Of a DNA stretch of 64,000 nucleotides, positions 3,885 to 58,447 are shown piece by piece. This stretch comes from Escherichia coli (GTDB taxonomy: Bacteria; Pseudomonadota; Gammaproteobacteria; Enterobacterales; Enterobacteriaceae). The position numbers were made by a program, and so were the translations under genes. The notes below the pieces were generated by a model. That model searched no databases and was not told where the DNA came from. It worked only from the letters and a program-made list of their open reading frames with translations. Position 1 is the first letter of the stretch; each line of letters starts with the position of its first letter. The DNA is taken from the NCBI RefSeq assembly GCF_003018255.1, contig NZ_CP027440.1. One strand, written 5' to 3'.

Positions 3885-4943
3885 ATGTTTAATACTGTAA
3901 AAATATCCAGTTGTGAGTTAATCAACGCTGACTGCCTGGAATTTATCCGGTCGTTACCCGAAAATTCTGTTGACCTGATAGTCACGGACCCGCCGTACTT
4001 TAAAGTGAAGCCTGAGGGCTGGGATAACCAGTGGAAGGGCGACGATGACTACCTGAAGTGGCTGGACCTGTGTCTGGCGCAGTTCTGGCGGGTGCTGAAA
4101 CCTGCCGGAAGTCTTTACCTGTTCTGTGGCCATCGCCTGGCATCTGACATTGAAATCATGATGCGTGAACGCTTCAGTGTGCTGAACCATATTATCTGGG
4201 CAAAGCCGTCCGGACGCTGGAACGGGTGCAACAAGGAAAGCCTGCGGGCGTATTTCCCCGCCACAGAGCGCATTCTGTTCGCGGAACATTATCAGGGGCC
4301 GTATCGCCCGAAAGATGCCGGGTATGAGGCGAAGGGCAGGGCACTGAAACAGCATGTGATGGCCCCGCTGATTTCTTACTTTCGTGATGCGCGTGCTGCC
4401 CTGGGGATAACGGCAAAACAGATAGTGGATGCCACAGGAAAGAAAAACATGGTGTCGCACTGGTTCAGTGCCAGTCAGTGGCAGCTACCGAACGAAAGCG
4501 ATTATCTGAAATTACAGGCGCTGTTTGCCCGGGTGGCAGAAGAGAAGCATCAGCGGGGGGAACTGGAGAAGCCCCACCACCAGCTGCTGGAGACGTATAC
4601 TTCACTGAACCGGCAGTATGCGGAACTGCAGAGTGAATATAAGCATCTGCGGCGGTATTTTGGCGTGACGGCGCAGGTGCCGTACACGGATGTGTGGACG
4701 CATAAACCGGTGCAGTACTATCCCGGGAAACATCCGTGCGAAAAACCGGCAGAAATGCTGCAGCAGATAATCAGCGCGAGCAGTCGTCCGGGTGACCTGG
4801 TTGCAGATTTTTTCATGGGGTCGGGTTCGACAGTCAAAGCCGCGATGGCGCTGGGGCGTCGTGCAACTGGCGTTGAGCTGGAGACTGAACGTTTTGAGCA
4901 GACGGTCAGGGAAGTTCAGGATTTAGTCAGTCAGAACGGATGA
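3885..4943 (+). CDS. DNA methyltransferase (N6-adenine/N4-cytosine class, DPPY motif)
   Basis: 352-aa ORF with catalytic DPPY motif (IVTDPPY) and C-terminal AdoMet-binding FxGSGS-like motif (FFMGSGST); no adjacent restriction gene seen. Confidence 0.85.
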   Translation: MFNTVKISSCELINADCLEFIRSLPENSVDLIVTDPPYFKVKPEGWDNQWKGDDDYLKWLDLCLAQFWRVLKPAGSLYLFCGHRLASDIEIMMRERFSVLNHIIWAKPSGRWNGCNKESLRAYFPATERILFAEHYQGPYRPKDAGYEAKGRALKQHVMAPLISYFRDARAALGITAKQIVDATGKKNMVSHWFSASQWQLPNESDYLKLQALFARVAEEKHQRGELEKPHHQLLETYTSLNRQYAELQSEYKHLRRYFGVTAQVPYTDVWTHKPVQYYPGKHPCEKPAEMLQQIISASSRPGDLVADFFMGSGSTVKAAMALGRRATGVELETERFEQTVREVQDLVSQNG

Positions 4944-53333: not shown

Positions 53334-55229
53334 ATGGCAGGGATATATCGCTGCATTTTGCTGTTGATAGTTGGGCTTTTTTTCTCTTCGTTGAGTTATC
53401 CGAAAAACACGGAGATCCCTTTTTATGAAGAAGGGATCTCGCTCTTTGATGTTGAAGCCACTCTGCAACTGGATGGGGTGCTCGACATCAAAGAAAATAT
53501 TCATTTTCAGGCGCGAAATCAGCAGATTAAGCATGGATTTTATCGTGATTTACCACGACTCTGGATGCAGCCTGATGGGGACGCTGCACTGCTGAACTAT
53601 CATATTGTTGGCGTCACCCGTGATGGTGTTCCTGAACCCTGGCATCTTGACTGGCATATCGGTTTAATGAGTATCGTCGTGGGCGATAAACAACGTTTCT
53701 TGCCTCAAGGTGACTATCATTATCAAATTCATTATCAGGTTAAAAATGCTTTCCTGCGTGAGGGAGATTCTGATCTGTTAATCTGGAACGTGACCGGTAA
53801 CAAGTGGCCGTTTGAAATCTATAAGACCCGATTTTCTCTCCAGTTGCCTGATATTGCGGGTAATCCATTTAGCGAAATTGATCTCTTTACTGGAGAAGAG
53901 GGCGACACATATCGAAATGGCCGCATCCTTGAGGACGGAAGAATTGAATCCCGCGATCCGTTTTATCGTGAAGACTTCACGGTCCTCTATCGCTGGCCTC
54001 ACGCTTTACTTGGTAATGCCCCGGCACCACAAACGACGAATATTTTCAGCCATCTTCTTTTACCCTCCACGTCATCGTTGTTAATTTGGTTTCCGTGTCT
54101 ATTCCTGGTTTGTGGATGGTTATATCTCTGGAAGCGCAGGCCGCAATTTACGCCGGTAGATGTGATTGAAACCGATGTCATTCCGCCAGATTACACGCCC
54201 GGCATGTTACGTCTCGATGCGAAGCTGGTTTACGACGATAAAGGTTTTTGTGCCGATATCGTAAATCTGATTGTGAAAGGAAAAGTTCATCTGGAAGATC
54301 AGTATGACAAGAACCAGCAAATCCTGATTCGTGTTAATGAAGGCGCGACCAGAAATAATGCGGTATTACTGCCCGCAGAGCAGTTATTACTGGAAGCGTT
54401 ATTTCGTAAAGGCGATAAGGTCGTTCTTACGGGGAGACGCAACAGAGTCTTACGCAGTGCATTTTTACGGATGCAGAAATTTTATCTGCCGCGTAAAAAG
54501 TCTTCGTTTTACCGACCTGATACGTTTTTGCAATGGGGCGGAATGGCAATATTGGCGGTCATTCTCTACGGTAACCTGAGTCCCGTAGGCTGGGCAGGAA
54601 TGAGTCTGGTGGGCGATATGTTTATTATGATCTGCTGGCTTCTTCCTTTTTTATTTTGTTCCCTTGAGCTTTTGTTTGCCCGCGATGATGACAAGCCTTG
54701 CGTTAATCGTGTAATCATCACTTTGTTTTTACCACTGATTTGTTCAGGTGTGGCCTTCTATTCTCTCTATATCAATGTCGGAGATGTATTCTTTTACTGG
54801 TATATGCCAGCGGGTTATTTTAGCGCTGTTTTCCTGACCGGTTATCTCACTGGCATAGGGTATATTTTTCTGCCAAAGTTTACCCAAACTGGGCAGCAAC
54901 GTTATGCCCACGGTGAAGCTATCGTTAACTATCTTGCGCGTAAAGAGGCGGCAACACACAGTGGGCGGCGGCGGAAAGGGGAAACACGGAAACTGGATTA
55001 CGCGTTGTTAGGTTGGGCGGTCTCGGCAAACCTTGGCAGAGAATGGGCAGCACGTATCACCCCATCACTCACAGCGGCTGTTAGCGACCCGGAAATTGCC
55101 CGTAGTGGCGTTTTATTCTCATTGCAGACGCACCTGAGTTGCGGGGCCTATACCAGTTTGTTGGGGCGGAGCTATTCCGGTGGTGGTGCTGGTGGCGGTG
55201 CAGGTGGCGGAGGCGGCGGTGGCTGGTAA
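53334..55229 (+). CDS. yciQ: membrane protein YciQ
   Basis: 631 aa, N-terminal signal/TM and several C-terminal TM segments, Gly-rich tail; synteny. Confidence 0.65.
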   Translation: MAGIYRCILLLIVGLFFSSLSYPKNTEIPFYEEGISLFDVEATLQLDGVLDIKENIHFQARNQQIKHGFYRDLPRLWMQPDGDAALLNYHIVGVTRDGVPEPWHLDWHIGLMSIVVGDKQRFLPQGDYHYQIHYQVKNAFLREGDSDLLIWNVTGNKWPFEIYKTRFSLQLPDIAGNPFSEIDLFTGEEGDTYRNGRILEDGRIESRDPFYREDFTVLYRWPHALLGNAPAPQTTNIFSHLLLPSTSSLLIWFPCLFLVCGWLYLWKRRPQFTPVDVIETDVIPPDYTPGMLRLDAKLVYDDKGFCADIVNLIVKGKVHLEDQYDKNQQILIRVNEGATRNNAVLLPAEQLLLEALFRKGDKVVLTGRRNRVLRSAFLRMQKFYLPRKKSSFYRPDTFLQWGGMAILAVILYGNLSPVGWAGMSLVGDMFIMICWLLPFLFCSLELLFARDDDKPCVNRVIITLFLPLICSGVAFYSLYINVGDVFFYWYMPAGYFSAVFLTGYLTGIGYIFLPKFTQTGQQRYAHGEAIVNYLARKEAATHSGRRRKGETRKLDYALLGWAVSANLGREWAARITPSLTAAVSDPEIARSGVLFSLQTHLSCGAYTSLLGRSYSGGGAGGGAGGGGGGGW

Positions 55230-55439: not shown

Positions 55440-56315
55440 ATGAGCGAAAAGCTACAGAAAGTGCTGGCGCGTGCCGGCCACGGTTCTCGCCGTGAAATCG
55501 AATCTATTATTGAAGCCGGTCGTGTGAGTGTTGATGGCAAAATTGCTAAACTCGGCGATCGTGTTGAAATTACCCCTGGATTGAAAATCCGTATCGATGG
55601 TCACCTGATTTCGGTACGTGAGTCCGCTGAACAAATTTGTCGCGTTCTGGCCTATTACAAACCGGAAGGTGAGTTGTGTACCCGTAACGATCCGGAAGGG
55701 CGTCCAACGGTGTTTGACCGTCTGCCAAAGCTGCGTGGCGCACGCTGGATTGCCGTAGGTCGTCTGGACGTTAACACCTGTGGTCTGCTGCTGTTCACCA
55801 CCGACGGTGAACTGGCAAACCGTTTAATGCATCCAAGCCGTGAAGTTGAACGTGAATATGCCGTGCGTGTATTTGGTCAGGTTGACGACGCGAAACTGCG
55901 TGATTTGAGTCGTGGCGTGCAGCTGGAAGATGGTCCGGCAGCCTTTAAAACCATCAAGTTCAGCGGCGGCGAAGGGATCAACCAGTGGTACAACGTAACT
56001 CTGACCGAAGGCCGTAACCGTGAAGTTCGTCGTCTTTGGGAAGCGGTTGGTGTGCAGGTAAGCCGCCTGATCCGTGTTCGTTACGGTGATATCCCACTGC
56101 CGAAAGGTCTGCCACGCGGTGGCTGGACGGAGCTGGATCTCGCCCAGACTAACTATCTGCGCGAACTGGTGGAGCTACCGCCAGAAACCAGCTCTAAAGT
56201 CGCTGTAGAAAAAGACCGTCGTCGTATGAAGGCGAATCAGATTCGTCGAGCGGTTAAGCGTCACAGTCAGGTGAGCGGCGGTCGTCGTTCTGGCGGACGT
56301 AATAATAACGGTTAA
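55440..56315 (+). CDS. rluB: 23S rRNA pseudouridine synthase RluB
   Basis: 291 aa, S4 domain plus pseudouridine synthase core, basic Arg/Gly-rich C-terminus. Confidence 0.85.
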
Positions 56316-56484
56316 TTTAAGATAAGTATAAAATAAAGGCCCTGCGGGGCCTTTTCTTCATTTGAAGCATGATAAATAGTCGCAGTATTTTAATTTAATT
56401 TCATACTTGCTTATGAATAATACCCGGAAATAGCCACATTACTATTTAATTATCTGAGATAAACTCAACGTCAAGAGGTGGGTT

Positions 56485-57486
56485 ATGATTAGATATAGTG
56501 GAATATTTCTATCGCTGTTAATGCTTTCAGGTTGTGCAACCGAAGCATTGAAAAACGAACAAGCTGAAACTGTTATTACTGCGGGTAACAAAGCAGTAGC
56601 GGCGAATGCAAGTTTCTTTAAACAATACTATGCTTCTCGTGAAAACTTCCTTGTTAATTTCTACGCGACTAATCCGGATTGTGCCCTGCGACCTGATTAT
56701 ACCATTGATATAGGCGGTGATGGGAATGGCGGAAAATTATGCCAGCGTTCAGGGCCAAATACAAAACAAGTACAATTAGTCCCTTTCGAGAAAGAAAAAT
56801 TACTGGCTTCAATGGAAGTCATTAATAGCATGAGCGCTTATGTGGAACTTCTGACAAAGGATATGGCAACTACGGAAAGTCAGCAAGTGGCATTACTTAA
56901 ACAGGCTCTGGATCACGCAAACAACGCACAAACACTACTTGGTGTTTCACATAGCAAAGATTTAGCTCAATCTGCAGCAGCGGTTAAAGATTTGGTAAAT
57001 TATTTCAATGAGTTATATATAATTAAAGTCAATTCTGGAAAAATAGGCAAAACGGTAGATGAAAACTGGGTAAGACTTATAAAAAACATGACTGTTTTGC
57101 GTAATGATATTTATACAAAAGGCGATAAGATTGAAAATTATACCTTTGCGAATGTACATAATAATATGATTTATTATAATGCGGTATCTAAAAACTCTAA
57201 GAATACAGAGTTTAACACTCTGAAAAACAGGAAGGAGTTTCTAAGTTCAGTAATCAATGTGAATGAAACCAGACTACAGGCATCGGCACCTGCCATGCCT
57301 GCGATTGAGGCTTTGAATGCCTTTATAGATAAGGGTGATTATCTGAAAAGCTTATACGTTAATAAAACACGCACGGCAGCTGAACAAAAAAGATTAAATG
57401 AAATATTACGCGCACAGGTCATTAGTGGGTTAAAGGCGTCTGAGGGGCTGGCAAAATTACTTATTGCCAGCGGAATAATGTTATAG
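56485..57486 (+). CDS. lipoprotein of unknown function (AT-rich islet)
   Basis: 333 aa, MIRYSGIFLSLLMLSGC lipobox, GAGGTGG RBS; Asn/Lys-rich, very AT-rich compared with flanking rluB/btuR. Confidence 0.6.
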   Translation: MIRYSGIFLSLLMLSGCATEALKNEQAETVITAGNKAVAANASFFKQYYASRENFLVNFYATNPDCALRPDYTIDIGGDGNGGKLCQRSGPNTKQVQLVPFEKEKLLASMEVINSMSAYVELLTKDMATTESQQVALLKQALDHANNAQTLLGVSHSKDLAQSAAAVKDLVNYFNELYIIKVNSGKIGKTVDENWVRLIKNMTVLRNDIYTKGDKIENYTFANVHNNMIYYNAVSKNSKNTEFNTLKNRKEFLSSVINVNETRLQASAPAMPAIEALNAFIDKGDYLKSLYVNKTRTAAEQKRLNEILRAQVISGLKASEGLAKLLIASGIML

Positions 57487-57496
57487 GAGGCTTTTT

Positions 57497-57805
57497 ATGA
57501 ACGATGTGCAAAACCGTAGAATACTGGCATTACTTGATATGCTGTATAATACTTTGGGTAATAAAACCACATGTAATGTTTGTCATAAATATTTTATCCT
57601 TATCCTCACGGTGATGAACAATCTGACGATTAACTACGGTACTGAAACTTCGCCAGAGTTAAGCGGAATCAGTTATGAAGATGCCAATGCGTTAATTACT
57701 GAACTGATATTATTTATTGAAGATGTTGACGCTGAGAATCATGAAGCATATCAGGGACATTTGAATGAGATTACACGTATTCTGAATTTCGCTATTGCCG
57801 CTTGA
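57497..57805 (+). CDS. small acidic cytoplasmic protein (islet partner gene)
   Basis: 102 aa, starts 10 nt after the lipoprotein stop with GGAGG RBS (operon-like); no family recognised. Confidence 0.5.
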   Translation: MNDVQNRRILALLDMLYNTLGNKTTCNVCHKYFILILTVMNNLTINYGTETSPELSGISYEDANALITELILFIEDVDAENHEAYQGHLNEITRILNFAIAA

Positions 57806-57819
57806 ATATAATCATGATT

Positions 57820-57855
57820 AAAGCACCTCAAGAGGCTTCTTTTGAGGTGCTTTCA
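57820..57855. terminator. bidirectional intrinsic terminator between islet and btuR
   Basis: AAGCACCTCAA-GAGGCTTC-TTTTGAGGTGCTT perfect 11-bp stem with A/T runs on both sides. Confidence 0.6.
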
Positions 57856-57856
57856 C

Positions 57857-58447
57857 TTAGTAGTCAATCCCTATCTGCGCTTTTACACCGGCATCAAACG
57901 CATGTTTCACGGGGCGTAATTCACTCACCGTATCCGCCAGTTCAAGAATATCCCGATGACAGCCTCGACCCGTGATAATCACCGTCTGTTGATGTGGACG
58001 TTCATTTAACGCCTGCACCACTTCTTCCAGTGGCAAATAGTCATACGCCACCATATACGTCAGTTCATCGAGCAAAACCATATCCAGTGAAGGATCGGCC
58101 AGCATTCGTTTGGCATGTTGCCAGACTTCACGGCAGGCCGCGGTATCAGATTCGCGATTTTGTGTATCCCAGGTAAAGCCCGTTGCCATCACCTGAAACT
58201 CAACGCCATGTGGCTCCAGTAGATTGCGCTCGCCATTAGGCCAGGTGCCTTTAATAAACTGCACGATACCCACTTTTTTGCCATGGCCTACTGCACGAGT
58301 TGCCGTACCAAATGCCGCGGTGGTTTTGCCTTTTCCATTGCCGGTAAAGACGATGATAATACCGCGCTCATCCTGGGCCTGGGCCACACGAGCATCGACT
58401 TTTTCTTTCACTCGCTGCTGACGCTGTTGGTAGCGTTCATCACTCAT
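57857..58447 (-). CDS. btuR: cob(I)alamin adenosyltransferase
   Basis: 196 aa with P-loop GNGKGKTTAA; overlaps yciK stop. Confidence 0.9.
   Translation of the reverse strand: MSDERYQQRQQRVKEKVDARVAQAQDERGIIIVFTGNGKGKTTAAFGTATRAVGHGKKVGIVQFIKGTWPNGERNLLEPHGVEFQVMATGFTWDTQNRESDTAACREVWQHAKRMLADPSLDMVLLDELTYMVAYDYLPLEEVVQALNERPHQQTVIITGRGCHRDILELADTVSELRPVKHAFDAGVKAQIGIDY

What the first reader, a model, noticed from the sequence alone, without database searches (positions are those of the whole stretch)
56340..57855. AT-rich two-gene islet between rluB and btuR
In the E. coli layout as I recall it, rluB is followed closely by btuR. Here ~1.5 kb of strongly AT-rich DNA (about 35% GC by eye) is inserted. 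It carries an operon-like pair: a 333-aa lipoprotein (LSGC lipobox, Asn/Lys-rich, helical) and, 10 nt downstream with its own GGAGG RBS, a 102-aa acidic cytoplasmic protein. Neither matches a family I recognise. An exported lipoprotein with a tightly coupled small partner resembles effector/immunity or toxin/chaperone pairs. The islet has no flanking mobility genes, so it is likely an old horizontally acquired locus.
Basis: partly seen in the sequence, partly recalled or inferred. Interest (0 to 1): 0.55.

Follow-up and report, generated by a model that had tools for sequence, protein, structure and literature searches.

The report
Polymorphic lipoprotein gene pair in Escherichia
Between two housekeeping genes, about a quarter of E. 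coli strains (including pandemic ST131) carry an old, AT-rich two-gene operon for an uncharacterised envelope lipoprotein and a small acidic partner, kept as three very different versions, with distant relatives on a prophage and beside phage-defence genes, so it may protect the cell envelope, though its function is untested.

Summary
ORF A (56485-57486, 333 aa, LSGC lipobox) and ORF B (57497-57805, 102 aa, pI 4.5) form a 36-38% GC operon between rluB and btuR; K-12 has 39 bp there. Among 5,426 complete E. coli genomes, 4,183 have the empty junction and 1,237 the cassette: three allele classes in 424, 776 (ST131 type) and 34 genomes. Classes share the upstream region and the first 72 codons, then fall sharply to 40-75% nucleotide identity. 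The pair occupies the same slot in E. whittamii, E. albertii and Citrobacter, about as diverged as the flanking genes, so it is an old polymorphism, not a recent insertion. Neither protein matches Pfam, NCBIfam, PADLOC, PHROGs or PDB sequences. ORF A belongs to a sparse lipoprotein family with three invariant cysteines; the moderate model is a helical bundle resembling DUF3829/imelysin-like lipoproteins, with no toxin or enzyme fold. Distant lipoprotein-plus-partner pairs lie at a P2-like prophage's orf30 moron site, beside a complete Hachiman system, and in toxin-antitoxin/IS-rich islands, but also in ordinary chromosomal settings. My best guess (about 0.3) is an envelope exclusion module against phage or bacteriocin. 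The toxin/immunity reading is not supported. The function is untested.

The parts
56335..56354 (+). rluB terminator hairpin (AAAGGCCCTGCGGGGCCTTT), the left edge of the cassette
   Evidence: Found by the terminator scan. The stem is invariant in 8 sequences out to the Citrobacter-like genomes.
56355..56484 (+). Conserved upstream control region of ORF A. It contains the TAGTCGCAG block (56377-56385), the palindrome TTCATA-N6-TATGAA (56400-56417), the ATTAC block (56438-56442), a -10-like AATTAT (56448-56453) and a Shine-Dalgarno sequence GAGGTGGG (56475-56482).
   Evidence: The whole 169-bp intergenic region (56316-56484) is 96.4% identical to E. albertii, against 87-90% for the flanking coding sequence (binomial P=1e-4), and 98.2% identical to E. 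whittamii. The listed blocks are invariant in 8 sequences. The palindrome is unique in the window, with 0.01 expected by chance. The scan found no consensus sigma-70 promoter here, so the promoter assignment is inference.
56485..57486 (+). ORF A: a 333-aa lipoprotein precursor of an uncharacterised family. Signal peptide and lipobox occupy codons 1-17 (Cys17 codon 56533-56535). Cys66 and Cys86 are invariant.
   Evidence: ORF and translation. Lipobox Cys17, Cys66, Cys86 and Tyr119 are invariant in 40 homologs. dN/dS is 0.12-0.17. AF2 model: pLDDT 69, pTM 0.65, helical bundle.
56485..56700 (+). Conserved N-terminal module of ORF A (codons 1-72: signal peptide, lipid anchor and first long helix). 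Its protein sequence is identical in three compared genomes, one from each E. coli allele class.
   Evidence: Protein alignment. Nucleotide identity is 90-100% up to about 56700 and then drops sharply. Within class I there are 8-10 synonymous and 0 non-synonymous changes.
56701..56784 (+). Most variable segment of ORF A (codons 73-100): a predicted beta-hairpin spanning invariant Cys86 and lying just downstream of invariant Cys66. It carries indels between alleles.
   Evidence: 38-47% nucleotide identity between the window (class I) and classes II and III; 57-60% between II and III. Indels are visible in the alignments. Strands 73-77 and 93-97 appear in the model.
56785..57400 (+). Divergent helical body of ORF A (codons 101 to about 305), 50-78% nucleotide identity between allele classes
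   Evidence: Sliding-window identity and protein alignments.
57486..57490 (+). GGAGG ribosome-binding site of ORF B, overlapping the last base of the ORF A stop codon (translational coupling)
   Evidence: Read directly from the sequence. A GAGG or AGGAG motif in the same position, with 6-12 nt spacing, occurs in L002, L003, L005, L008 and L009.
57497..57805 (+). ORF B: a 102-aa acidic partner (pI 4.5) with no signal peptide or TM segment
   Evidence: ORF and properties. dN/dS is 0.15. A partner follows the ORF A homolog in every enterobacterial locus and in the Buttiauxella prophage, where it is 29% identical (E 5e-7).
57820..57853 (.). Strong hairpin between the convergent ORF B and btuR, probably a bidirectional terminator and the right edge of the cassette
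   Evidence: Fold with dG -22.3 kcal/mol and z -5.97; 0 of 200 shuffles fold as well. K-12 has a different hairpin in its 39-bp junction.

Best explanation
What is shown:
- This is a self-contained operon with its own conserved control region, two translationally coupled genes and a terminator.
- ORF A is exported by the lipoprotein pathway. It has a lipobox Cys, and Ala at position +2, which by the established '+2 rule' predicts Lol-dependent sorting to the outer membrane.
- Two further invariant cysteines lie close together in the sequence (C66, C86). A disulfide between them is inferred.
- The predicted fold is an all-helical bundle.
- ORF B is a small acidic protein with no export signal.
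- The locus is an old polymorphism at a fixed site in Escherichia and Citrobacter. It is either empty or holds one of three or more deeply diverged allele classes, with sharp recombination boundaries.

What is inferred:
- It is an envelope-level protective or exclusion module of the kind that prophages carry as morons.
- The invariant N-terminal anchor helix docks ORF A to a conserved envelope component.
- The fast-diverging hairpin and helical body face an external, rapidly evolving antagonist. The most likely antagonist is an infecting phage (receptor masking or blocking DNA injection), or else a bacteriocin.
- ORF B acts on the cytoplasmic side as a chaperone, regulator or signalling partner of ORF A.
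- Frequency-dependent selection by the antagonist maintains the allele classes and the null state.
- Expression probably needs a host activator that binds the conserved palindrome.
For: Anatomy:
- ORFs, coupling, terminators and conserved upstream region.
- Both genes are under purifying selection but evolve about ten times faster than rluB.

Population pattern:
- 4,183 empty sites against 424 + 776 + 34 in three classes.
- 65-69% protein identity between classes, while the flanking proteins are 97-100% identical.
- A sharp breakpoint at codon 72. Raised divergence extends about 450 bp into btuR.
- Class I in E. whittamii and a class II-like allele in E. albertii are about as diverged as the flanks. 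This implies polymorphism older than the species.

Context of distant homologs:
- Full-length ORF A homologs exist at 16-25% identity (HMM E-values about 1e-28 to 1e-4). They keep the three cysteines and, in all but one of the loci examined, a tightly following partner of about 96-107 aa. Partners 96-107 aa long were computed to be acidic (pI 4.5-5.0) in the four loci tested.
- In Buttiauxella the pair sits between gpS and gpV of a P2-like prophage, at GC 0.34-0.40 against 0.55-0.61 for the phage. That is the orf30 moron region, one of three recognised P2 moron sites (PMC6823313, PMC3091744). According to those papers, Z/fun at a second site is a phage-exclusion (immunity) gene.
- In Klebsiella variicola the pair lies in an integrase island directly beside a complete Hachiman system.
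- Other copies lie with colicin DNase/immunity, IS3 and TacAT, with VapBC, Fic and IS200, or next to a transposase.

Partner:
- In L012 the partner is a longer protein with TM-grade hydrophobic segments. That is compatible with the partner acting at the inner membrane.
Against: - There is no functional evidence of any kind.
- There is no match to 5,027 PADLOC defence models.
- There is no homolog in 50,697 deposited phage genomes or in IMG/VR, and no viral protein with this fold.
- Only one prophage-borne copy was found.
- The window copy and the Chlorobiaceae-type and Pantoea copies lie in ordinary chromosomal contexts.
- A signal-less partner has no obvious role in an exported exclusion protein. 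Known exclusion lipoproteins (Llp, Cor; from memory) are single small proteins.
- Overall dN/dS is below 1, so positive selection is not demonstrated.
- Homology between ORF B and the most distant partners could not be shown.
- The structure model is only moderate (pLDDT 69).
Confidence: 0.3

Rival explanations
1. An accessory envelope lipoprotein with a physiological role and no part in conflict, for example ligand or metal binding or envelope homeostasis. It would be a distant structural relative of the DUF3829/YiiG or imelysin-like double four-helix-bundle lipoproteins. The allele diversity would reflect relaxed constraint plus old recombination.
For: - The best full-length structural neighbours are enterobacterial lipoproteins annotated DUF3829 (TM 0.74, E 2e-10) or imelysin-like.
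- The Chlorobiaceae-type and Pantoea homologs sit among housekeeping genes.
- dN/dS is 0.12-0.17, which indicates purifying selection.
- The control region is strongly conserved, which suggests integration into host regulation.
Against: - There is no sequence relationship to DUF3829. None of 40 members hits PF12889, and hhalign against YiiG gives 5% probability. YiiG itself hits PF12889 at 4e-103.
- No imelysin motif is conserved.
- 77% of E. coli do without the cassette.
- Relaxed constraint does not explain discrete allele classes with sharp breakpoints and an invariant N-terminal module.
- It also does not explain the repeated placement next to mobile or defence genes.
Confidence: 0.25
2. 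A surface-exposed, antigenically variable lipoprotein acting on the animal host, for example in serum resistance or adhesion, in the manner of the prophage- or plasmid-borne lipoproteins Bor/Iss and TraT (from memory). Immune pressure would maintain the allele classes.
For: - Outer-membrane sorting is predicted (Ala at +2).
- There is a hypervariable beta-hairpin next to the cysteine pair.
- There are discrete allele classes in a gut or extra-intestinal commensal-pathogen, including ST131.
- One homolog is a prophage moron.
Against: - Homologs occur in free-living or environmental bacteria (Methylomonas, a Chlorobiaceae MAG, Pantoea, Rahnella).
- There is no similarity to Bor/Iss/TraT-type families in Pfam, NCBIfam or PHROGs.
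- Surface exposure is unknown.
- The cassette is found in strains from many hosts and from water, with no obvious link to a pathotype.
- The signal-less partner is unexplained.
Confidence: 0.15
3. One reading: a toxin/immunity or effector/chaperone pair, with ORF A as an exported polymorphic toxin or effector and ORF B as its cytoplasmic immunity protein or chaperone.
For: - Basic ORF A (pI 8.9) is paired with a small acidic ORF B (pI 4.5) by translational coupling.
- A conserved N-terminus followed by a variable remainder resembles polymorphic toxins on the surface.
- Some homologs lie in islands rich in toxin-antitoxin and colicin genes.
- Lipoprotein polymorphic toxins with cytoplasmic immunity proteins exist in myxobacteria (SitA/SitI; from memory).
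Against: - No toxin or enzyme domain was found by Pfam, NCBIfam or PDB sequence search.
- The fold is a generic helical bundle with no toxin-like neighbour.
- The variable regions are homologous and collinear, not swapped domains.
- Class III pairs a 69%-identical ORF A with a 96%-identical ORF B, so the 'immunity' protein does not co-vary with the variable part.
- 77% of strains lack ORF B, yet there is no sign of a delivery system at the locus.
- The E. albertii type strain keeps ORF B with a frameshifted ORF A. That is compatible with this reading, but it is a single case.
Confidence: 0.1

Closest known systems
DUF3829 (PF12889) lipoproteins, e.g. E. coli YiiG
   Same: Both are enterobacterial lipoproteins of about 330-350 aa and are all-helical. 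The best full-length structural match of the ORF A model is a protein annotated DUF3829 (TM 0.74, E 2e-10). Neither has a known function.
   Different: No sequence relationship is detectable. None of 40 family members hits PF12889, and hhalign against YiiG aligns only the signal peptide. The invariant Cys66/Cys86 pair of ORF A and its coupled small partner were not examined in YiiG.
Morons of P2-like prophages at the orf30 (S-V) site, and the Z/fun, tin and old exclusion genes at the other two P2 moron sites
   Same: A distant homologous pair (23% and 29% identity) is an AT-rich insert exactly between gpS and gpV of a Buttiauxella P2-like prophage. The cassette is a short, AT-rich, self-contained unit between two conserved anchor genes, like the phage hotspots described in PMC9122126.
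   Different: The window copy is not in a prophage. It sits between core genes at a site conserved across genera. No homolog exists in deposited phage genomes. The functions of orf30-site morons are themselves unknown (PMC6823313).
Phage-encoded exclusion lipoproteins (T5 Llp, phi80/N15 Cor, streptococcal Ltp; from memory)
   Same: These are lipid-anchored envelope proteins carried by mobile elements that block infection at the envelope. This is the mechanism proposed here.
   Different: There is no sequence or fold similarity. Those are single genes and mostly much smaller. The pair here has a signal-less partner, and no exclusion activity has been tested.
Fixed-locus, AT-rich, hypervariable surface-structure loci of E. 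coli (O-antigen cluster, fliC; established knowledge)
   Same: All are low-GC DNA between conserved core genes, with discrete and deeply diverged allele classes exchanged by recombination in the flanks. The polymorphism is shared across Escherichia species.
   Different: This locus has only two genes and no biosynthetic function. It has a common null state (77%), and surface exposure is unproven.
Polymorphic toxin / immunity modules (CDI, Rhs, SitA/SitI)
   Same: A conserved N-terminal part is followed by a sharp switch to a variable part, with a small acidic protein encoded immediately downstream.
   Different: There is no toxin domain, the variable parts are homologous, and the partner does not co-vary with the variable part.

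Membership tests
Bacterial lipoprotein (Lgt/LspA substrate) | An N-terminal signal peptide ending in a lipobox [LVI][ASTVI][GAS]C | tested here: met
   The N-terminus is MIRYSGIFLSLLMLSGC, with lipobox L-S-G-C. The Cys is invariant in 40 homologs.
Bacterial lipoprotein (Lgt/LspA substrate) | Actual lipidation, and outer-membrane localisation (no Asp at +2) | not testable with these tools
   Position +2 is Ala, which predicts Lol sorting to the outer membrane by the established +2 rule.
DUF3829 / YiiG (PF12889) | A significant match to the PF12889 profile | tested here: not met
   ORF A gave no hit, and none of 40 family members hit at E<=0.1. The control, K-12 YiiG, hits at 3.7e-103.
DUF3829 / YiiG (PF12889) | Profile-level homology to YiiG | tested here: not met
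   hhalign of the family alignment A4 against YiiG gives 5% probability and aligns only the signal peptide. YiiG was used as a single sequence, so sensitivity was limited.
DUF3829 / YiiG (PF12889) | Shared fold | tested here: inconclusive
   Foldseek gives TM 0.74 and E 2e-10 to a Yokenella protein annotated DUF3829, with weaker hits to other DUF3829 and imelysin-like entries. The model has only pLDDT 69, and helical bundles match promiscuously.
Imelysin-like (Peptidase_M75) | A Pfam match and a conserved metal-binding HxxE motif | tested here: not met
   There is no Pfam hit. Outside the Cys residues and Tyr119, no residue is conserved in 40 homologs.
Polymorphic toxin / immunity pair | A recognisable toxin domain or fold in the variable C-terminal part | tested here: not met
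Polymorphic toxin / immunity pair | Alleles carry non-homologous toxin domains after a demarcation point | tested here: not met
   The variable parts are collinear and homologous, at 65-69% protein identity.
Polymorphic toxin / immunity pair | The immunity protein co-varies with the toxin domain | tested here: not met
   Class III against class I: ORF A is 68.8% identical while ORF B is 96.1% identical.
Polymorphic toxin / immunity pair | Toxicity of ORF A neutralised by ORF B | not testable with these tools
   This needs expression experiments.
Known anti-phage defence systems (PADLOC-DB v2) | A match to a defence-protein model | tested here: not met
   There were no hits for ORF A or ORF B at E<=1.
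Known anti-phage defence systems (PADLOC-DB v2) | Location in defence islands or mobile-element hotspots | tested here: inconclusive
   Met for some distant homologs: the P2 orf30 site, a position beside Hachiman and an integrase, and toxin-antitoxin/IS islands. Not met for the window locus, L024 or L026.
Known anti-phage defence systems (PADLOC-DB v2) | Protection against phage infection | not testable with these tools
   This needs plaque assays.
Prophage moron | An insert between conserved phage genes, with deviant composition and its own expression signals | tested here: not met
   The window copy lies between chromosomal core genes, with no phage genes nearby. The criterion is met only by the Buttiauxella homolog.

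The most novel reading that the evidence does not exclude
The pair defines a new family of envelope-anchored, two-component exclusion systems against phage or bacteriocin: a lipoprotein plus a signal-less acidic partner. In Escherichia it has been domesticated at a fixed chromosomal site. There it is kept as a polymorphism older than the species (null plus three or more allele classes) by frequency-dependent selection, under the control of a conserved host regulator.
Probability: 0.2. Interest if true: 0.7.

Novelty: new variant of a known kind. Interest (0 to 1): 0.45.

Why it matters
- The cassette is in about 23% of complete E. coli genomes, and its commonest form is the one carried by the ST131 genomes sampled. 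Both genes are annotated only as 'hypothetical protein', and no paper was found that mentions them.
- It shows discrete, ancient allele classes with sharp recombination boundaries and a common null state, shared across Escherichia species. In E. coli this pattern is otherwise associated with structures under strong external selection, such as O-antigen, flagellin and phage receptors.
- Distant copies travel on a prophage and beside a defence system.
- If it does act as an envelope exclusion module, it would add a new protein family to phage or bacteriocin resistance. It would also help explain strain-to-strain differences in phage susceptibility, which matters for phage therapy of ST131.
- If it does not, it is still a clean, small, experimentally tractable example of long-term balanced polymorphism in a two-gene operon.

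Tried and rejected
1. Haem c or zinc site in ORF B. The CxxCH motif (C26, C29, H30) is conserved only in the Escherichia/Citrobacter clade. The Buttiauxella partner has CxxxxC and no His, and other partners keep a single Cys. ORF B also has no export signal. Rejected.
2. Tat signal in ORF B (the N-terminal 'NRRILALL'). The hydrophobicity is too low, there is an Asp in the segment, and it is not conserved. Rejected.
3. DUF3829/YiiG membership. Rejected at sequence level.
4. A 'fourth, very divergent allele' on a 33-kb E. coli 'plasmid' (H45, 32.5% identity). It is an error-ridden chromosomal fragment of the class II allele, in which rluB and btuR are also frameshifted. The other two plasmid hits are not evidence of plasmid carriage either: H43 is a 4.9-Mb chromosome-sized record, and H44 (a 252-kb record) was not examined.
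5. Phage carriage of the enterobacterial clade. There are no hits in GenBank phages (tblastn with ORF A and with P0051) or in IMG/VR.
6. Deeper homolog collection with the word-indexed search using the 40-sequence profile. It returned only the close clade because of the candidate cap.
7. The search for related loci with the 40-sequence alignment.
8. Homology between ORF B and the distant partner groups. It was not demonstrable by hhalign with shallow alignments.
9. The first structure model from 13 sequences was unusable (pLDDT 46).
10. RNA elements in the islet. Only chance-level Rfam hits were found.
11. Literature searches by protein accession, DUF3829/YiiG and rluB/btuR found nothing on this locus.
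12. A conserved third gene upstream in the Methylomonas and Chlorobiaceae-type loci. The upstream genes are not homologous.
Full report
**1. Observation**

- The described features are all present. ORF A (56485-57486, + strand, 333 aa) starts MIRYSGIFLSLLMLSGC, a signal peptide with an L-S-G-C lipobox.
- ORF B (57497-57805, + strand, 102 aa) follows 10 nt after the ORF A stop. A GGAGG at 57486-57490 overlaps the last base of that stop codon.
- GC is 0.375 for ORF A and 0.359 for ORF B, against 0.50-0.54 for rluB, btuR, yciK and sohB. 300-nt windows fall to 0.29.
- rluB (55440-56315) ends in a hairpin terminator at 56335-56354.
- A second strong hairpin at 57820-57853 (dG -22.3 kcal/mol, z -6.0) lies between ORF B and the convergent btuR.
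- Mature ORF A is basic (pI 8.9). ORF B is acidic (pI 4.5) and has no signal peptide or membrane-spanning segment.
- K-12 MG1655 has only 39 bp between rluB and btuR, containing an unrelated hairpin.

**2. Distribution in E. coli**

Counts are from 5,426 complete genomes.

| State of the rluB-btuR junction | Genomes | Source |
|---|---|---|
| Contiguous K-12-type (empty) junction | 4,183 | |
| Any part of the cassette | 1,237 | |
| Class I, the window type (>=80% of the cassette covered) | 424 | |
| Class II (ST131 type, 340 + 102 aa) | 776 | |
| Class III (340 + 102 aa) | 34 | |

- The remaining roughly 800 cassette-positive genomes, including ST131, share only the first ~385 nt with the window. 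That stretch is the 169-bp upstream region plus 72 codons.
- Those genomes carry classes II and III.
- The three classes account for 1,234 of the 1,237 cassette-positive genomes.
- ORF A is 65-69% identical between classes. ORF B is 75% (I vs II) or 96% (I vs III) identical. The flanking proteins are 97-100% identical.
- Nucleotide identity is 90-100% up to about position 56700 (codon 72) and then falls abruptly to 38-78%.
- Against class III it returns to about 98% near 57400. Against class II it stays low through ORF B. Divergence remains somewhat raised (88-93% identity) for about 450 bp into btuR.
- The most variable stretch (codons 73-100, with indels) is the predicted beta-hairpin. It spans invariant Cys86 and lies just downstream of invariant Cys66.
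- Within class I, dN/dS is 0.12-0.17 for ORF A and 0.15 for ORF B, against 0.01-0.02 for rluB. Codons 1-72 show 8-10 synonymous and no non-synonymous changes.
- Both are therefore real genes under purifying selection, but they evolve fast.

**3. Age and origin**

- The same pair lies in the same rluB-btuR slot in Citrobacter sp. ANG330 and in another enterobacterial contig. ORF A is 52-55% and ORF B 62-67% identical there, against 87-98% for the flanking proteins.
- Among 100,044 species-representative genomes, only E. whittamii (97% protein identity, class I) and E. albertii (62%, class II-like, frameshifted in the type strain) carry it.
- The cassette is about as diverged between species as its flanks:

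| Comparison | Cassette identity | Flank identity |
|---|---|---|
| E. whittamii vs window (class I) | 94-98% | 91-95% |
| E. albertii vs ST131 (class II) | 81-88% | 86-89% |

- Classes I and II differ far more from each other than either does from its cross-species counterpart. Both classes therefore seem to predate the species splits. Alternatively, they were introgressed long ago.
- This is not the picture of a recent insertion. It is a long-lived polymorphism at a fixed locus, with frequent absence.
- The cassette is AT-rich relative to every host, so an ultimately foreign origin remains plausible.

**4. A conserved control region**

- The 169 bp upstream of ORF A is more conserved between species than the coding DNA around it. 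Identity to E. albertii is 96.4%, against 87-90% for the flanking coding sequence (P = 1e-4). Identity to E. whittamii is 98.2% (P = 0.009).
- The following blocks are invariant even in the Citrobacter-like genomes:
  - the rluB terminator;
  - TAGTCGCAG (56377-56385);
  - a palindrome TTCATA-N6-TATGAA (56400-56417), which is unique in the window with 0.01 expected by chance;
  - ATTAC (56438-56442);
  - a -10-like AATTAT (56448-56453);
  - the Shine-Dalgarno sequence.
- No consensus -35/-10 pair was found by the scan. An activator-dependent promoter is an inference.

**5. The proteins**

- Neither protein matches Pfam, NCBIfam, PADLOC or PHROGs significantly, or the sequences of solved structures.
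- A word-indexed search of 5.8 billion proteins found only Escherichia and Citrobacter relatives.
- An exhaustive profile search of 1.84 billion representatives found 56 hits. About 35 of these are full-length lipoproteins of 324-357 aa at 16-25% identity.
- In a 40-sequence alignment, the lipobox Cys17, Cys66, Cys86 and Tyr119 are invariant. None of the 40 matches any Pfam family convincingly.
- Their hosts include Buttiauxella, Raoultella, Klebsiella, Rahnella, Pantoea, Methylomonas and a Chlorobiaceae MAG. All are annotated 'hypothetical'.
- With this alignment AlphaFold2 gives a moderate model (pLDDT 69, pTM 0.65). It has long helices and one beta-hairpin at residues 73-97.
- Foldseek against AFDB finds full-length matches to enterobacterial lipoproteins annotated DUF3829 or imelysin-like (TM about 0.7, E 1e-10 to 1e-8). 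Nothing matches among viral proteins.
- The DUF3829 link fails at sequence level. hhalign against K-12 YiiG aligns only the signal peptide, while YiiG itself matches PF12889 at 4e-103.
- There is no toxin or enzyme fold.

**6. The pair is the conserved unit**

- In nearly every locus examined, the lipoprotein gene is followed within 6-45 nt (6-26 nt where the junction was read directly) by a signal-less ORF of 96-107 aa.
- The partners in the four loci where pI was computed are acidic (pI 4.5-5.0).
- Sequence homology of the partners is demonstrable within groups:
  - ORF B against the Buttiauxella partner: 29% identity, E 5e-7;
  - the Methylomonas against the Chlorobiaceae-type partner: 40% identity, E 4e-20;
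  - a third group, whose members share an alignable pattern.
- Homology is not demonstrable between groups. Across the whole family the conservation is therefore one of position, size and charge.
- In one GC-rich locus the partner is a 269-aa protein with TM-grade hydrophobic segments. This hints that the partner works at the inner membrane.

**7. Context of distant homologs**

- In Buttiauxella agrestis the pair (GC 0.34-0.40) lies between gpS and gpV of a P2-like prophage with GC 0.55-0.61.
- That site is the orf30 region, one of three recognised moron sites of P2-like phages (PMC6823313, PMC3091744). According to those papers, Z/fun at a second site is a phage-exclusion (immunity) gene. From memory, the third site holds the exclusion genes tin and old.
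- In Klebsiella variicola the pair is in an integrase-bearing island directly beside a complete Hachiman system.
- In another contig it lies with a colicin DNase/immunity pair, an IS3 element and a TacAT toxin-antitoxin.
- In Methylomonas it lies with VapBC, Fic and IS200. One copy is next to a transposase.
- The Pantoea and Chlorobiaceae-type copies, and the window copy itself, lie among ordinary chromosomal genes.
- The association with conflict-related and mobile DNA is therefore suggestive but not consistent.

**8. Interpretation**

- Firmly established:
  - the locus is an old, self-contained, polymorphic two-gene operon;
  - it encodes an exported, lipid-anchored, helical lipoprotein with three invariant cysteines, from an uncharacterised family, plus a signal-less acidic partner;
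  - the operon has a strongly conserved control region.
- The following pattern is what one expects of an envelope protein facing a fast-evolving external antagonist:
  - an invariant anchor module with a fast-diverging body;
  - discrete ancient alleles with a common null state;
  - AT-richness;
  - carriage of relatives on a prophage and beside a defence system.
- I therefore favour an exclusion or protection role against phage or bacteriocin, at a confidence of about 0.3.
- The rivals are a physiological envelope lipoprotein with no role in conflict (0.25), a host-directed antigenically variable surface lipoprotein (0.15) and a toxin/immunity pair (0.1).
- The toxin/immunity idea is weakened by three findings:
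  - there is no toxin fold;
  - the variable parts are homologous;
  - class III pairs a diverged ORF A with an almost unchanged ORF B.
- Nothing here tests function. The decisive experiments are simple and are listed under next steps.

**9. Novelty**

- The genes are already present in RefSeq as 'hypothetical protein'. No paper in the searchable library mentions them or the junction.
- The family is not in Pfam, NCBIfam, PHROGs or PADLOC.
- I rate the finding as a new variant of a known kind: an accessory AT-rich envelope cassette or moron-like module. It is of moderate interest.

Noticed in passing
window 56316-56484: The intergenic region upstream of ORF A is more conserved between Escherichia species (96-98%) than the neighbouring coding genes (87-95%). 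It contains a unique palindrome, TTCATA-N6-TATGAA (56400-56417), and a TAGTCGCAG block that are invariant or near-invariant out to the Citrobacter-like genomes. This looks like a binding site for an unidentified regulator.
   Followed up: partly
window 53334-55229 (yciQ): The upstream neighbour yciQ (DUF2207, 631 aa, Gly-rich C-terminal tail) has lower GC (0.43-0.46) than its surroundings. It is absent from Citrobacter sp. ANG330 and E. albertii, where yciO is followed directly by rluB. It is present in E. coli and E. whittamii. This looks like a second lineage-specific insertion in the same neighbourhood.
   Followed up: partly
L021 2898-3919 (E. albertii NBRC 107761): In the E. albertii type strain ORF A is split into 244-aa and 96-aa ORFs (a frameshift), while ORF B (3929-4237) is intact.
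   Followed up: no
E. coli genome hits H30 and H46: A few E. coli genomes have an IS1 element inserted in the cassette, so the cassette is occasionally inactivated.
   Followed up: no
window 57870-58290 (3' half of btuR): btuR shows raised divergence between strains with different cassette classes (88-93% identity, against 97-100% in rluB). The divergent block extends about 450 bp beyond the cassette on the right but stops sharply at codon 72 of ORF A on the left.
   Followed up: partly
L012 2171-2980: In one GC-rich homologous locus the gene after the lipoprotein encodes a 269-aa protein, not a ~100-aa partner. It has a soluble N-terminal part and TM-grade hydrophobic segments in its C-terminal third. 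It may be a membrane-anchored form of the partner.
   Followed up: partly
L009 8800-9650: The Buttiauxella P2-like prophage has a second low-GC stretch (0.43-0.44) holding a Peptidase_C92 gene on the opposite strand, between the baseplate gene I and the tail-fibre gene. It may be another moron.
   Followed up: no
PLSDB records CP054249.1 and NZ_CP134663.1 (also CP054253.1, not examined): CP054249.1 is a chromosomal fragment labelled as a plasmid and is full of frameshifts. NZ_CP134663.1 is a 4.9-Mb, chromosome-sized record in the plasmid collection. CP054253.1 (252 kb) was not examined.
   Followed up: yes
L014 3108-5960 and L026 6864-7910: In Methylomonas the pair is preceded by a phospholipase-C-type phosphoesterase gene and a 413-aa unknown gene. 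In the Chlorobiaceae-type contigs it is preceded by a TIG/Ig-domain protein. The upstream genes are not homologous to each other.
   Followed up: partly
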